This document shows, piece after piece, positions 12,225 through 16,762 of a stretch of DNA of 44,487 nt. The stretch lies in IMG/VR virus record IMGVR_UViG_2718218131_000009, positions 1-44,487 of that record; one strand, written 5' to 3'. Source of the stretch: a virus (Duplodnaviria; Heunggongvirae; Uroviricota; Caudoviricetes). The notes below the pieces were generated by a model that was given only the letters and a program-made list of their open reading frames with translations, had not been told where the DNA came from and made no database searches. Made by a program: the position numbers and the translations under genes. The stretch's first letter is position 1; every line of letters begins with the position of its first letter.

Positions 12225-12553
12225 CAGTTCACCACCTGTTTAAACTCTGCGCTGAACTCAACACGCAACATACTGACCTGCGACGACCATTTTGCGCAGG
12301 TCACCTTTATCTGCCTGTAACCATAAGGCGGCGTCCACAGAAAGGCCTTCCAGCCCCCGTGCTCAGCCAGAAACGACTCCAGCGCCGTGGCCTCCTCACG
12401 GGAGACAGACAGCGTCACGCTGTACGTTTTCAGGTCAGCGTTCAGCCCGGCAGGCGCACGCTGGGAATAGCCATCACCAAAGCGCACCTCCCTGACGGAA
12501 GGGGCCGATGTCACATCCATACCGGGTTTCACTTTCCAGCGGAAGGTTTTCAT
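12224..12553 (-). CDS. M: Minor tail protein M
   Basis: 109 aa, the same length and position as lambda gpM. Confidence 0.9.
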   Translation of the reverse strand: MKTFRWKVKPGMDVTSAPSVREVRFGDGYSQRAPAGLNADLKTYSVTLSVSREEATALESFLAEHGGWKAFLWTPPYGYRQIKVTCAKWSSQVSMLRVEFSAEFKQVVN

Positions 12554-15204
12554 CGTCCACCTCCGGAGAACAGGCCACCATCACGCATCTGTGTCTGAAT
12601 TTCATCACGGGCACCCTTGCGGGCCATGTCATACACCGCCTTCAGAGCAGCCGGACCTATCTGCCCGTTCGTGCCGTCGTTGTTAATCACCACATGGTTA
12701 TTCTGCTCAAACGTCCCGGACGCCTGCGACCGGCTGTCTGCCATGCTGCCCGGCGTACCGACATAACCGCCGGTGGCATAGCCGCGCATCAGCCGGTAAA
12801 GATTCCCCACGCCAATCCGGCTGGTTGCCTCCTTCGTGAAGACAAACTCACCACGGTGAACAATCCCCGCTGGCTCATATTTGCCGCCGGTTCCCGTAAA
12901 TCCTCCGGTTGCAAAATGGAATTTCGCCGCAGCGGCCTGAATGGCTGTACCGCCTGACGCGGATGCGCCGCCACCAACAGCCCCGCCAATGGCGCTGCCG
13001 ATACTCCCGACAATCCCCACCATTGCCTGCTTAAGCAGAATTTCTGTCATCATGGACAGCACGGAACGGGTGAAGCTGCGCCAGTTCTGCTCACTGCCGG
13101 TCAGCATCGCCGCCATATTCTGTGCAATACCATCAAAGGTCTGCGTGGCTGCACTTTTTACCTGCGACATACTGTCCGTGGCGCTCTCTTCCCACTCACT
13201 CCAGCCGGACTTCAGGCCTGCCATCCAGTTCCCGCGAAGCTGGTCTTCAGCCGCCCATGTCTGTTTCAGTGCCCCGGTGACCCGGGCCAGCGCCTGCGGA
13301 TTATCACCGTACACGTCCCGAAGACGCTGCGCTTCAGACTCCCGCTGCGCCTGACGGTCAGTGAGACCGCGGGCTTTTGCGCTGATGGCGGCCTGCTTCG
13401 CGCTCTGCTGCTCTTCAAACCGCACCGCCTGCTGTGCCAGCTCATTCAGGCGTTTCTGGTGTTCAACCTTGTCGCCCAGGTCAGCCAGCTGGCGTTTGTA
13501 CTCCAGCGTCTCTTTCTCATGGGCCAGCAGGGATTTTTCCTGCCAGGATAACTGCCGTTTCGTGACAGCCTCTTTCAGGACCGCATACTGACTTTCCGCC
13601 TTCCATAAATCACGGCGCTGCCGACTGATTTTCTCATTCGCACCGCTGTGTTTTTCCAGCGTCCTGAGCTCAGCTTCAAGGGCAAGCAGAGCCTCTCTTG
13701 CCTGCTCCTCTTCCCTCTCCCCGGCAGAGCGCGTTTTCGGTGATGTATGCTTTTTACCTGTCAGCTCTTCAGCCAGACGGCTGACGGCTTCCTGCTGCCC
13801 AGGACCTTTGCTGACGCCTGTTGCACGCGAGCGGTTGATGTACCCCATTTCCCCCTGGCGTATACGCGCATCCCGTTCCGCAATGGATTTTCTCAGCGCC
13901 AGTTCATCGCGTTTTGTTTTCTCAATAAATACGCGGTTCTCTTCTGCCAGTTCACCAAACAACGCACCAACGCCGGGCACATTCTTTGTCGTTTCCCAGG
14001 CTGACTGAATAAATTCAGCCAGCGCCAGATCCCCCTGCACAAGTAGCAGCTTCACTTGTTCAACGGTTCCGGCCACCACGTCAGTGATCAGACTGAGTGC
14101 CCCCAGTGTATGATCACCTATCCATGCCCATGCGTCAGAAGTCCAGGTTTTAACATCGTCCCAGATTTTTTCCACCGGCGTGGCCGCTTTATCAAGTTGC
14201 TCCAGACGTGCATTCATGACATCCGCAAACAGGGACATCGCCTCCGTCACCGCAGCCTGTTTACCTTTCGTGCGCTCAAGCTCATCAATATGGCGTAACT
14301 GGGAAACGCTCAGGAAGTTATACTGCTGATTCAGGGAGGCCAGCGCCTTCACCGGATCTGCTGCAATCCCTTCAAAGGCTTTTTCCACCTTCCCGGCATC
14401 GTCCCCCACCGTCTGCAGCCATCTCTGAGAGGTTTCCCCCATGATCCGTAGCTGCCCGGCGGTATATTTCCCGCTTTCTGCCAGACGGGCCAGATTTTCT
14501 GCCGCCTGTCTGATACCACCACCGGCTTCATCGCTGATCACCCCGGCCATTTTCCACAATTCTGCCGTTGTGGTGGCAGCCGCCCCTCCGGTCAGGGTCA
14601 GTGAACGCAATAAGGCCCGGTCAGCCTGCTCTGCCTGCCAGGCGGCGGCAGCAAGCGCGGCCAGTACGGCAACCCCGCCACCTGCCGCCACACGGGCCAC
14701 CGACATAAATCGTCCCAGCTCACCGGCATTCCGGGCATTTTCAGCCAGTGCATTTGCCGTATCTGACAGCGACTCCTCTGATGATTCAGAGGCATCCCTG
14801 ATCCCGAGAAGTTCCTCCTTCAGCAGGGTAAGCAGGCTGAGCGGTCCACCGAATGAATCGCTGATCTGCCCCCCCTGCTGCAGCATGATAAGGAAGGGAT
14901 TCTGACCACCGGCAAGCTGAGTGACAATATCCGTGAACTGTGCGGGCAGTGTGCGCATGGCAGCCTTATACTGTCCGACTGATATCCCGGCTTTTTGTGC
15001 AGCCAGCGCCTGTCGGCTCAGACTCTGCTCAGCAGCATCAGCCTGTTTTCTGAAAGACTGACTGACTTTCCCGGACATCAAATCAGCAAGCGCACTGGTT
15101 TCACCCAGCTCTTTTTTTACCCGCGCTGCCTCTTCAGAAAAACGGGCAGAATCCAGTGTCAGCACGGCTGTCAGATCGGCAAAATTACCTGCCATCGTGG
15201 TCAC
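12550..15204 (-). CDS. H: Tail tape measure protein H
   Basis: 884 aa, Ala/Gln-rich coiled-coil protein located between T and M. Confidence 0.9.
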   Translation of the reverse strand: MTTMAGNFADLTAVLTLDSARFSEEAARVKKELGETSALADLMSGKVSQSFRKQADAAEQSLSRQALAAQKAGISVGQYKAAMRTLPAQFTDIVTQLAGGQNPFLIMLQQGGQISDSFGGPLSLLTLLKEELLGIRDASESSEESLSDTANALAENARNAGELGRFMSVARVAAGGGVAVLAALAAAAWQAEQADRALLRSLTLTGGAAATTTAELWKMAGVISDEAGGGIRQAAENLARLAESGKYTAGQLRIMGETSQRWLQTVGDDAGKVEKAFEGIAADPVKALASLNQQYNFLSVSQLRHIDELERTKGKQAAVTEAMSLFADVMNARLEQLDKAATPVEKIWDDVKTWTSDAWAWIGDHTLGALSLITDVVAGTVEQVKLLLVQGDLALAEFIQSAWETTKNVPGVGALFGELAEENRVFIEKTKRDELALRKSIAERDARIRQGEMGYINRSRATGVSKGPGQQEAVSRLAEELTGKKHTSPKTRSAGEREEEQAREALLALEAELRTLEKHSGANEKISRQRRDLWKAESQYAVLKEAVTKRQLSWQEKSLLAHEKETLEYKRQLADLGDKVEHQKRLNELAQQAVRFEEQQSAKQAAISAKARGLTDRQAQRESEAQRLRDVYGDNPQALARVTGALKQTWAAEDQLRGNWMAGLKSGWSEWEESATDSMSQVKSAATQTFDGIAQNMAAMLTGSEQNWRSFTRSVLSMMTEILLKQAMVGIVGSIGSAIGGAVGGGASASGGTAIQAAAAKFHFATGGFTGTGGKYEPAGIVHRGEFVFTKEATSRIGVGNLYRLMRGYATGGYVGTPGSMADSRSQASGTFEQNNHVVINNDGTNGQIGPAALKAVYDMARKGARDEIQTQMRDGGLFSGGGR

Positions 15205-15238
15205 CTCCTGAAATGTCCTCTGATACCATCAATAACTG

Positions 15239-15598
15239 TCACAACCTCCTTCCCTCCTCCCCGAAACGGACTCCACCGGCGAGGCCCGCCGCCTTCTGCA
15301 TCAGTACATCATTTTCGTCCGGCGTCTCCGCCTGCCCTTCCTCTGCCTCCGGAGCGAACAGGCTGAAATCCGCCGGATGCATATCCGGATCGCAAAAAAA
15401 CAGGCTGAGTACGGCGTACGTCAGCCCGGAAAAATGCATATCCAGCTGGGTATCCTGAAAATAATGCGTGCAGTAAAAACGTCGCCAGTCGGCATATTCG
15501 GTGGATGTCATCCCGGCAAGCATGGCGCGCCAGTCGGCTCTCCCCATCTCACGCGCCAGTTTCAGGACAAAGTTCAGCTCGCCTTCGAATGCTTTTTT
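15239..15598 (-). CDS. T: Tail assembly chaperone T segment, expressed as a G-T fusion by -1 frameshift
   Basis: The -1 frame is open from the slippery site to the stop at 15239 (reads KKAFEGELNFVLKLAREMGRADW...). It has no independent RBS or start. Confidence 0.7.
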   Translation of the reverse strand, partial: KKAFEGELNFVLKLAREMGRADWRAMLAGMTSTEYADWRRFYCTHYFQDTQLDMHFSGLTYAVLSLFFCDPDMHPADFSLFAPEAEEGQAETPDENDVLMQKAAGLAGGVRFGEEGRRL

Positions 15599-15996
15599 GA
15601 TGTTACCGGCTCAGTCGCTTCTGTTTTCCCGGTTGGTTCAGGATCGGCATCGTGCCGGTTATCCAGCATACCTGAAAGATAAAGCACCCGGTTCGTTGCC
15701 TGATTCAGTGCATCAGCAGGCCATCCCAGCATCACTTCACGGCGGATCTGCTGCATCTCTGTCTCCGGAGAGGCCAGAGTGCCTTTGAGGGAATGGGAAT
15801 GCCATAGCGACATCGCCACAAGCAGGGATGCCGTTTCCAGATATCGCTGGTTAATGTGCACGACATCATGCTTCGTTGTCTCCTGTTGTTCTGCGTCTGA
15901 AACAAACTTTATATAATCAAACCGCTGCAGCGCAGACAATTCGGAAAGCGTGACGGACACACCGTTATATTCAAATTGTTCTGTTTTCAGAAACAT
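15574..15996 (-). CDS. G: Tail assembly chaperone G
   Basis: 140 aa, the same length and position as lambda gpG, with a slippery site near its 3' end. Confidence 0.85.
   Translation of the reverse strand: MFLKTEQFEYNGVSVTLSELSALQRFDYIKFVSDAEQQETTKHDVVHINQRYLETASLLVAMSLWHSHSLKGTLASPETEMQQIRREVMLGWPADALNQATNRVLYLSGMLDNRHDADPEPTGKTEATEPVTSKKHSKAS
15592..15598 (-). other. Programmed -1 ribosomal frameshift heptamer A_AAA_AAG (G to G-T)
   Basis: mRNA ...ACA UCA AAA AAG CAU... lies three codons before the G stop, and the -1 frame continues into T. Confidence 0.6.
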
Positions 15997-16009
15997 GTAT
16001 TACCTCCGT

Positions 16010-16762
16010 TTACCCTGCAGCGCCCGCTTCAGTAACGGTGACTTCAGCCACTGCGGCGAACTGACCATTTCCGCTCACCACAGGGATCTGCACCTTACCT
16101 GTCGCCACGCCGTTTACCGTAATTGTCATATCTTTCACACTAATGGTGGCTTTCGACGGATCGGCGGAAACCGCTCTGAACGTCTTGTCGGTTGCACTTT
16201 CCGGCTCAAAAGAAACCGTCAGGGTGGTTGTTTTCCCTTTTGCCACCGTACCGGATGTCGGCGTCACCTTAATCGCAGTGACCGGCGTAATTTTGCTGCG
16301 TTCTTCCGCTACAGAAGGTTTGCCCACGTTGGTCACTTTCACCGTGCGGGTGATCACTTCTTTCGCCGTCACGGCCTTACCGATACTGCTGACCCAGCCA
16401 CGGAACACATCCACCGTGCCATTTGGGAAACGGATTTTATAGGCCCGCACATCCCCGCTTTCAAACCAGCCTATAAGCCCTTTCTGACCTTCTTCTCCCG
16501 GTTTCCAGGCCAGCGTAAAACTGGTATCTCCTGCAGACTTCTGCCCCTGCCCGGTCGCGGTCCAGTCCGCGTCTTCATCATCCAGGTAGTTATCATCGTA
16601 GGGTTCTGCCGTCATCTCGCCCGGCGTCAGATCCTTCACCTTAGCCAGTCGCTGCCAGTCATCGTCTGACAACGGGTTTGCATAAGCATCACCCTTGCCG
16701 TTGTAAACCCACAGAGTGGTACCGGCACCTTTTACCGGCTCAAGGGGATTTGGTGTTGCCAT
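16010..16762 (-). CDS. V: Major tail protein V
   Basis: 250 aa with an Ig-like C-terminal domain, in the lambda V position. Confidence 0.9.

What the first reader, a model, noticed from the sequence alone, without database searches (positions are those of the whole stretch)
15574..15610. G-T tail chaperone frameshift uses a dnaX-type A_AAA_AAG heptamer
The -1 frame into T opens only 12 codons before the G stop, and the only slippery heptamer in that interval is A_AAA_AAG at 15592-15598, three codons before the stop. This differs from the G_GGA_AAG site of lambda.
Basis: seen in the sequence. Interest (0 to 1): 0.4.

Follow-up and report, generated by a model that had tools for sequence, protein, structure and literature searches.

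The report
Known G-T tail chaperone frameshift site
This is the ordinary programmed -1 ribosomal frameshift site that lets a lambda-like E. coli prophage make a small amount of a G-T fusion tail-assembly chaperone; it uses A_AAA_AAG instead of lambda's G_GGA_AAG, a variant already catalogued for the near-identical phage VT1-Sakai.

Summary
On the minus strand, gene G (15574-15996, Pfam lambda gpG chaperone) overlaps a -1 frame that opens at 15610 and encodes the T domain. A_AAA_AAG (15592-15598) is in the slip-prone phase and is the only such heptamer in all of G. One detail is wrong: five sense codons, not three, separate it from the G stop.

In 197 related loci the heptamer sits at the same position as lambda's mapped site and is always either G_GGA_AAG or A_AAA_AAG. 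T-frame protein similarity to lambda starts exactly at the heptamer.

It is not new. The 161 bp around the site are 100% identical to phage VT1-Sakai. Lynch et al. 2012, citing Xu, Hendrix and Duda 2004, list AAAAAAG as VT1-Sakai's site. Published E. coli measurements give the two heptamers near-equal efficiency, and 7% for A_AAA_AAG in another O157 prophage chaperone.

"dnaX-type" applies to the heptamer only. There is no upstream Shine-Dalgarno-like element. A downstream fold shared with lambda shows no covariation.

What remains is an annotation gap: no database record checked joins G and T. Interest is low.

The parts
15574..15996 (-). Gene G, tail assembly chaperone, 140 aa; the zero-frame product ends at TGA 15574-15576
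   Evidence: ORF list and translation; Pfam PF06894 Phage_TAC_2, E = 1.4e-34; codon table
15592..15598 (-). Slippery heptamer A_AAA_AAG in X_XXY_YYZ phase (codons 133-135, TCA AAA AAG); inferred site of the -1 tandem tRNA-Lys slip
   Evidence: Sequence; the only in-phase XXXYYYZ in G; same position as lambda G_GGA_AAG; invariant in all 84 A-type loci sampled
15611..15613 (-). TGA that closes the -1 (T) frame upstream, so a productive shift must occur between 15610 and 15574
15239..15592 (-). T-frame segment read after the shift (first codon GCA starts at 15592; 117 aa; stop TGA 15239-15241). Predicted G-T fusion = 135 aa from G plus 117 aa = 252 aa
   Evidence: Translation and alignment with lambda G-T, 279 aa; Pfam PF06223 Phage_tail_T, E = 1.6e-12
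15515..15583 (-). Candidate downstream RNA fold, function unproven. Outer stem GGCGAGC (15577-15583) pairs with GCUUGCC (15515-15521) and starts 8 nt 3' of the heptamer. It encloses a GC-rich hairpin (15523-15558)
   Evidence: MFE -34.7 kcal/mol, z = -2.0 for 92 nt, but not better than shuffles at 52 or 132 nt. Kept in both heptamer classes including lambda, 97.8% of cells paired, zero compensatory changes
16010..16762 (-). Gene V, major tail tube protein, immediately upstream of G (context)
   Evidence: Pfam PF16461 lambda tail tube protein, E = 1e-68, plus Big_2
12550..15195 (-). Gene H, tape measure protein, immediately downstream of T (context). The likely start is ATG 15195, preceded by GGAGGTG; the ORF finder's GTG 15204 is less likely
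   Evidence: Pfam PF06791 and PF09718; the VT1-Sakai H annotation is 2646 nt; sequence

Best explanation
This is the programmed -1 ribosomal frameshift site of a lambda-family G/G-T tail assembly chaperone gene pair in a mosaic lambdoid E. coli prophage. Most ribosomes translate G to its stop and make the 140-aa chaperone. A few percent are inferred to slip back one base on TC-A_AAA_AAG. With tRNA-Lys(UUU) on AAA in the P site and on AAG in the A site, both re-pair with AAA AAA. Reading then continues with GCA in the T frame to give a 252-aa G-T fusion, ...TSKK/AFEGELNF.... By analogy with lambda, the G part binds the tape measure protein H and the T part recruits the tube protein V, and the fixed G:G-T ratio is what matters for tail assembly. 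The sequence geometry, family membership and positional homology are shown here. The slip itself, its rate and the protein roles are inferred from lambda and from published measurements on the same heptamer. The GGG to AAA difference from lambda looks like a functionally equivalent swap.
For: 1. Gene order is V-G-T-H, with Pfam matches PF16461, PF06894, PF06223 and PF06791/PF09718.
2. The -1 frame opens only 11 codons before the G stop, and A_AAA_AAG is the single in-phase slippery heptamer in G.
3. Positional homology with lambda is exact: G is 140 aa, the G part of the fusion is 135 aa, and five codons lie between the heptamer and the stop in both. T-frame identity to lambda starts at the first post-slip codon, upstream of the first T-frame ATG.
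4. In a sample of 120 IMG/VR loci retrieved through a T-frame motif without regard to the heptamer, the in-phase heptamer was G_GGA_AAG in 102 and A_AAA_AAG in 13. The exceptions were one point variant and unrelated matches. Over all 203 loci the counts were 113 and 84. Only the two fully slippery states are common, although they differ by three substitutions.
5. A_AAA_AAG marks a clade of more than 20 distinct G proteins plus a separate lineage, L137.
6. Measured -1 frameshifting in E. coli (Sharma et al. 2014, PMC4066793, Table S3) was 0.29 / 4.3 / 39% for AAAAAAG and 0.28 / 3.8 / 43% for GGGAAAG, with no, IS911 or IS3 stimulators.
7. A_AAA_AAG in another O157 Sakai prophage chaperone, ECs1801, gave 7% frameshifting (Antonov et al. 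2013, PMC3711429; the cassette is identical to L004:20347-20421).
8. Both heptamer classes occur in prophages of one host genome, IMG 2703718791.
9. VT1-Sakai, 100% identical over the 161 bp around the site, is cited as using AAAAAAG.
Against: There is no direct evidence of a fusion protein for this locus or its clade in anything I could read. GenBank and RefSeq annotate T as a separate or 'incomplete' CDS. Bare heptamers give only about 0.3% in reporter constructs, while lambda is reported at about 4%, so some context effect is needed and remains unidentified. T here lacks the last roughly 31 aa of lambda T, so the fusion may be impaired in this lineage. My locus sample is confined to Enterobacterial prophages that share a conserved T motif.
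Confidence: 0.88

Rival explanations
1. T is translated on its own from the internal ATG at 15547, as GenBank records annotate it, and no frameshift is involved.
For: VT1-Sakai, ASU11 and RefSeq annotate a separate T CDS starting at that ATG.
Against: No Shine-Dalgarno-like sequence lies at a usable distance upstream of that ATG (the sequence is ...CTGGCGCGTGAG-ATG). The 15 T-frame codons upstream of the ATG, back to the heptamer, are conserved with lambda (11 of 15 identical), so they are coding. In lambda, T is made only as G-T (Levin et al. 1993, as summarised in PMC5009743).
Confidence: 0.04
2. The G-T product arises by transcriptional slippage: RNA polymerase adds one A in the A6 run, giving an mRNA that encodes the same fusion.
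For: A run of six A residues is present, and an extra A would give exactly the same protein (...SKKAFEGE...), so protein data alone cannot tell the two apart.
Against: Productive transcriptional realignment is described for homopolymers of about eight or more (Antonov et al. 2013), and A6 is short. Sister genes with G_GGA_AAG have only A3 at the same place yet keep the same architecture. The strict conservation of the X_XXY_YYZ phase is a ribosomal requirement, not a polymerase one.
Confidence: 0.04
3. The site is a relic in a decaying prophage. The signal is intact, but G-T in this lineage is non-functional because T is C-terminally truncated.
For: T ends at TGA 15239-15241 and lacks about 31 aa present in lambda and in 150-158-codon relatives. 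PGAP labels T 'incomplete; missing C-terminus' and H 'frameshifted' in a strain that is 100% identical over 15150-16050.
Against: G, T, V and H are open in the window. The same short-T module occurs in ASU11, recovered by mitomycin C induction, and in several Stx-converting phages. The Pfam T domain is fully matched, profile positions 1-73 of 73.
Confidence: 0.08

Closest known systems
Phage VT1-Sakai (prophage Sp15 of E. coli O157:H7 Sakai) G-T frameshift, listed with site AAAAAAG by Xu, Hendrix & Duda 2004 (Mol Cell 16:11), as cited in Lynch et al. 2012 (PMC3483164)
   Same: Effectively the same sequence: 99.8% identity over 901 bp and 100% over the 161 bp around the site. Same heptamer, same G and T ORFs, same short T.
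   Different: Nothing at the site. The window's early region is of another lambdoid type, mEp460-like. I could read only the citing paper, not Xu et al. 2004 itself.
Bacteriophage lambda G / G-T, slip site G_GGA_AAG (Levin, Hendrix & Casjens 1993)
   Same: Same Pfam families, same V-G-T-H order, same -1 direction, same position (G part 135 aa, five codons before the stop) and the same A-site codon AAG read by tRNA-Lys. The downstream 100 nt are highly similar.
   Different: The first three bases are AAA rather than GGG, so the P-site tRNA is tRNA-Lys instead of tRNA-Gly. Lambda-type G proteins are only about 43-47% identical. The fusion is 252 aa against 279 aa because T is shorter.
ECs1801 tail assembly chaperone of Sakai prophage Sp9: cluster A_AAA_AAG_25 of Sharma et al. 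2014, with the cassette measured at 7% by Antonov et al. 2013
   Same: Same heptamer, same role (chaperone ORF between the tail tube and tape measure genes), same host species, and the -1 product is the longer one.
   Different: A different protein family (blastp against this G gives E = 1.3). The heptamer abuts the stop codon (AAG TAG).
E. coli dnaX gamma/tau frameshift signal
   Same: Identical heptamer A_AAA_AAG, with tandem tRNA-Lys slippage.
   Different: dnaX has an upstream SD-like stimulator and a nearby 3' stem-loop, runs at about 50%, and yields a shorter product. Here no SD-like element is present, a 3' structure is unproven, the expected rate is a few percent, and the product is longer.

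Membership tests
Lambda-type G/G-T tail assembly chaperone with programmed -1 frameshift | Two overlapping ORFs lying between the major tail (tube) gene and the tape measure gene | tested here: met
   V 16010-16762, G 15574-15996, T frame 15239-15610, H 12550-15195, all on the minus strand
Lambda-type G/G-T tail assembly chaperone with programmed -1 frameshift | Sequence membership: the upstream ORF is gpG-like and the downstream frame is gpT-like | tested here: met
   PF06894 at 119 bits (cut-off 27); PF06223 at 48.1 bits (cut-off 25.9)
Lambda-type G/G-T tail assembly chaperone with programmed -1 frameshift | The second ORF is in the -1 frame, and its conserved coding extends upstream of any start codon into the overlap | tested here: met
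   Frame translations. T-frame identity to lambda begins at the codon after the heptamer, 15 codons before the first ATG
Lambda-type G/G-T tail assembly chaperone with programmed -1 frameshift | A canonical X_XXY_YYZ heptamer, in phase, inside the overlap and conserved among relatives | tested here: met
   A_AAA_AAG at 15592-15598 is the only one in G. The same position carries G_GGA_AAG or A_AAA_AAG in 197 of 203 loci
Lambda-type G/G-T tail assembly chaperone with programmed -1 frameshift | A G-T fusion protein is made at a low fixed percentage and is required for tail assembly | not testable with these tools
   Needs protein or reporter experiments. Only indirect published values are available for the heptamer
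dnaX-type frameshift signal | A_AAA_AAG slippery heptamer | tested here: met
dnaX-type frameshift signal | Shine-Dalgarno-like stimulator about 10 nt upstream of the heptamer | tested here: not met
   The upstream 20 nt are AGCGACUGAGCCGGUAACAUC, with no GGAG, GAGG or AGGA core. Sharma et al. also score both prophage chaperone clusters as having no SD
dnaX-type frameshift signal | Stimulatory stem-loop a few nucleotides downstream | tested here: inconclusive
   A stem starting 8 nt downstream can form (z = -2.0 at 92 nt; nothing at 52 nt). It is conserved but has no compensatory changes
dnaX-type frameshift signal | The frameshift yields a shorter product at roughly 50% efficiency | tested here: not met
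   The -1 frame stays open for 117 more codons, giving a longer product. The efficiency was not measured here
Programmed transcriptional realignment | Homopolymer run of about 8 or more A/T | tested here: not met
   The run is A6. The criterion is as stated in Antonov et al. 2013

The most novel reading that the evidence does not exclude
Both slipping tRNAs at A_AAA_AAG are tRNA-Lys(mnm5s2UUU), whereas lambda has tRNA-Gly in the P site. The G:G-T ratio of this EHEC prophage clade could therefore respond more steeply than lambda's to the host's U34 thiolation and sulfur-relay state, which Maynard et al. 2012 showed controls lambda yield. Separately, bare heptamers give about 0.3% while lambda reaches about 4%, which leaves room for a still-unrecognised stimulator. 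The fold at 15515-15583, conserved in both heptamer classes, is a candidate.
Probability: 0.12. Interest if true: 0.35.

Novelty: already known. Interest (0 to 1): 0.08.

Why it matters
It matters little for discovery. The G-T frameshift is a textbook feature of long-tailed phages, and this exact variant was catalogued in 2004 for VT1-Sakai. The practical value lies in annotation. None of the 22 deposited phage records with this site joins G and T, and neither does the RefSeq record I examined. PGAP even flags T as an incomplete pseudogene. As a result the real 252-aa G-T product is missing from protein databases for a prophage module that is common in Shiga-toxin-producing E. coli. The clean two-state pattern (GGG or AAA, never an intermediate at appreciable frequency) also illustrates selection for slipperiness rather than for the encoded amino acids.

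Tried and rejected
1. I first suspected that Sharma et al.'s cluster A_AAA_AAG_25 (ECs1801) was this gene. Fetching Sakai Sp9 showed an unrelated chaperone family (blastp E = 1.3). It serves as an analogue, not as the same locus.
2. The genome-contig scan with G gave only one locus (E. albertii, G_GGA_AAG type) and was uninformative.
3. AAAAAAG is not enriched in the window (14 against 9.8 +/- 3.1), so word frequency is no argument for the site.
4. The covariation test of the downstream fold gave 0 compensatory pairs and uninformative shuffle controls. I neither accept nor reject a stimulator.
5. An upstream hairpin (15592-15660, z = -2.7) lies in the variable G C-terminal region. I did not pursue it.
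6. Xu et al. 2013 (PMC3762263) is not held, and Xu et al. 2004 and Levin et al. 1993 could not be read. Their content is taken from citing papers.
7. Structure prediction and the large protein searches were not used because they would not bear on the question.

Full report
WHAT IS THERE

The relevant genes are on the minus strand. ORF listing and translation show G at 15574-15996 (140 aa). G follows V, the tail tube gene, at 16010-16762. It precedes a -1-frame ORF that ends at TGA 15239-15241 and then H, the tape measure gene, at 12550-15195. Pfam assigns them as follows:
- G: PF06894, lambda tail assembly chaperone G (1.4e-34)
- the -1 frame: PF06223, minor tail protein T (1.6e-12)
- V: PF16461
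- H: PF06791 and PF09718

A codon-by-codon table gives the geometry:
- The -1 frame is closed by TGA at 15611-15613 and is open from 15610 downwards.
- G codons 133-135 are TCA AAA AAG, which places A_AAA_AAG (15592-15598) in the X_XXY_YYZ phase.
- It is the only in-phase XXXYYYZ heptamer in the entire G ORF.
- Five sense codons (CAT TCG AAG GCG AGC) follow before the TGA at 15574-15576.

IS IT MORE THAN CHANCE?

The word AAAAAAG is not enriched in the window (14 against 9.8 +/- 3.1). Its placement is unlikely, however. Using the window's own heptamer frequencies, an in-phase XXXAAAG within 12 codon positions has a probability of about 0.4%, and any XXXYYYZ about 7%.

The stronger evidence is comparative. 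I collected 80 loci through the G protein. I then collected 120 more through a conserved T-frame DNA motif, CTGGCGCGNGAGATGGGG, which lies downstream and is blind to the heptamer.

Heptamer found in the G/-1 overlap | motif-retrieved sample, 120 loci | all 203 loci
G_GGA_AAG | 102 | 113
A_AAA_AAG | 13 | 84
none | 4 | 5
other family | 1 | 1

- The four "none" cases in the motif-retrieved sample were one A_GGA_AAG point variant (L118) and three unrelated or uninformative matches (L127, L181, L203). A fifth, among the G-protein hits, was L071, which has a 31-nt deletion.
- In every case with a heptamer, it ended exactly five codons before the G stop.
- The two common states differ by three substitutions, and intermediates are essentially absent. 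This is the pattern expected if slipperiness itself is under selection.
- An NJ tree of 81 distinct G proteins puts A_AAA_AAG in one clade of more than 20 variants plus a separate lineage, L137.
- The sampling is limited to Enterobacterial prophages that share the T motif.

HOMOLOGY TO THE MAPPED LAMBDA SITE

I fetched lambda J02459 and built both fusions.
- In both phages G is 140 aa and the G part of the fusion is 135 aa.
- The T frame continues from the last base of the heptamer. Lambda's annotated T CDS starts at that very base, 10115.
- T-frame similarity begins at the first post-slip codon: AFEGELNFVLKLAREMGRADWRAML in the window against VFDGELSFALKLAREMGRPDWRAML in lambda. This is 15 codons upstream of the first T-frame ATG (15547).
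- That ATG has no usable Shine-Dalgarno sequence.

These points argue against independent initiation of T, although GenBank and RefSeq annotate T that way.

MECHANISM

The inferred event is a tandem -1 slip. tRNA-Lys(UUU) sits on AAA in the P site and on AAG in the A site, both re-pair to AAA AAA, and the next codon read is GCA. The result is a 252-aa G-T protein with the junction ...TSKK/AFEGE....

Published E. coli measurements bear on the expected rate:
- Sharma et al. 2014 (PMC4066793, Table S3) report 0.29 / 4.3 / 39% for AAAAAAG and 0.28 / 3.8 / 43% for GGGAAAG, without a stimulator, with the IS911 stimulators and with the IS3 stimulator. The two heptamers are therefore functionally interchangeable.
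- The same paper lists a prophage cluster, A_AAA_AAG_25 (ECs1801, "tail assembly chaperone; [true]"), alongside G_GGA_AAG_4 (gpG).
- ECs1801 lies in Sakai prophage Sp9 and is an unrelated chaperone family.
- The 75-nt cassette that Antonov et al. 2013 measured at 7% is identical to the ECs1801 sequence.
- Both heptamer classes occur in prophages of a single host genome, so one translation apparatus serves both.

IS IT "dnaX-TYPE"?

Only the heptamer is.
- The 20 nt upstream have no SD-like core.
- Downstream, a 7-bp stem starting 8 nt after the heptamer (15577-15583 with 15515-15521) encloses a GC-rich hairpin. The 92-nt fold has z = -2.0, but shorter and longer windows are no better than shuffles.
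- The fold is retained in both heptamer classes, including lambda, with 97.8% of cells paired.
- All variation is one-sided and there are no compensatory pairs. Part of the region was also fixed by my search motif, and all of it is protein-coding. The evidence is inconclusive.
- Transcriptional slippage is unlikely. The run is only A6, and sister genes with only A3 at this place keep the same architecture.

NOVELTY

- The 901 bp around the site are 99.8% identical to phage VT1-Sakai, and the central 161 bp are 100% identical.
- Lynch et al. [quoted passage not shown] They cite Xu, Hendrix and Duda 2004 for this.
- The finding is therefore already known.
- What remains is an annotation gap. None of the 22 phage records with this site joins G and T, and neither does the RefSeq record I examined. 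PGAP labels T "incomplete".

RESIDUAL POSSIBILITIES

- Maynard et al. 2012 (PMC3296357) showed that tRNA-Lys U34 thiolation sets lambda's gpG:gpGT ratio and its yield. With Lys codons in both ribosomal sites, the A-type site might be more sensitive to that host state. This is untested.
- Bare heptamers give about 0.3%, while lambda is reported at about 4%. An unidentified context effect may therefore be common to both classes.

VERDICT

The feature is an ordinary, previously catalogued member of the G-T frameshift family, and interest is low.

Noticed in passing
window 15195-15300 (minus strand); compare L034, L073, L078, L086: T ends early, at TGA 15239-15241. The fusion is 252 aa against lambda's 279 aa and lacks the last ~31 aa, including the second 'AGGVRYG' motif. 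The 3' end of T and the 5' end of H form a different mosaic segment, shared with VT1-Sakai, CP-1639 and ASU11. Residual homology to the ancestral T tail (LLMVSEDISGG) continues after the stop. PGAP calls T 'incomplete; missing C-terminus' in a strain that is 100% identical over 15150-16050.
   Followed up: partly
window 15111-15118 (minus strand), inside H: An A7 run gives an in-phase A_AAA_AAA (GTA AAA AAA GAG, Val-Lys-Lys-Glu) near the 5' end of the tape measure gene. A -1 shift there would hit TGA after three codons (AGA GCT GGG TGA), so it looks incidental. It is also a potential indel hotspot.
   Followed up: partly
L003 (E. coli 2013C-3264, NZ_CP027544) 2356-3901: RefSeq marks the tape measure gene as 'frameshifted' in this strain, although the G-T region is 100% identical to the window. 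The window's own H ORF is intact. I did not locate the lesion.
   Followed up: no
L071 (IMGVR_UViG_2869970738_000006) around 1890-1900: A 31-nt deletion removes the slippery heptamer and the G stop in an otherwise 97% identical G. This looks like a degraded prophage copy in which the G reading frame runs on to 207 aa.
   Followed up: partly
L118 (IMGVR_UViG_2703718809_000019): A single lambda-type locus carries A_GGA_AAG (GCA GGA AAG) in place of G_GGA_AAG. This is a rare imperfect intermediate between the two common states.
   Followed up: no
L004 20002-20681 (E. coli O157:H7 Sakai prophage Sp9, ECs1801/ECs1802): An unrelated chaperone family in the same pathotype also uses A_AAA_AAG, here directly abutting the stop (AAG TAG). 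The sequence is identical to the cassette measured at 7% by Antonov et al. 2013. RefSeq annotates the two ORFs separately.
   Followed up: yes
window 1-44487: The window is a mosaic lambdoid prophage. The late (structural) region is about 92% identical to ASU11, CP-1639 and VT1-Sakai. The early region (from about 25400 onward) is about 97% identical to mEp460 and PhiR40_1. No tRNA genes were found.
   Followed up: partly
heptamer 3' context across loci: The base after the heptamer tracks the heptamer class. A_AAA_AAG is always followed by C (CAT or CGT; 84 of 84). G_GGA_AAG is nearly always followed by T (111 of 113). This base is the second base of the first post-slip T-frame codon (Ala or Val). 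Whether it affects efficiency is unknown.
   Followed up: no
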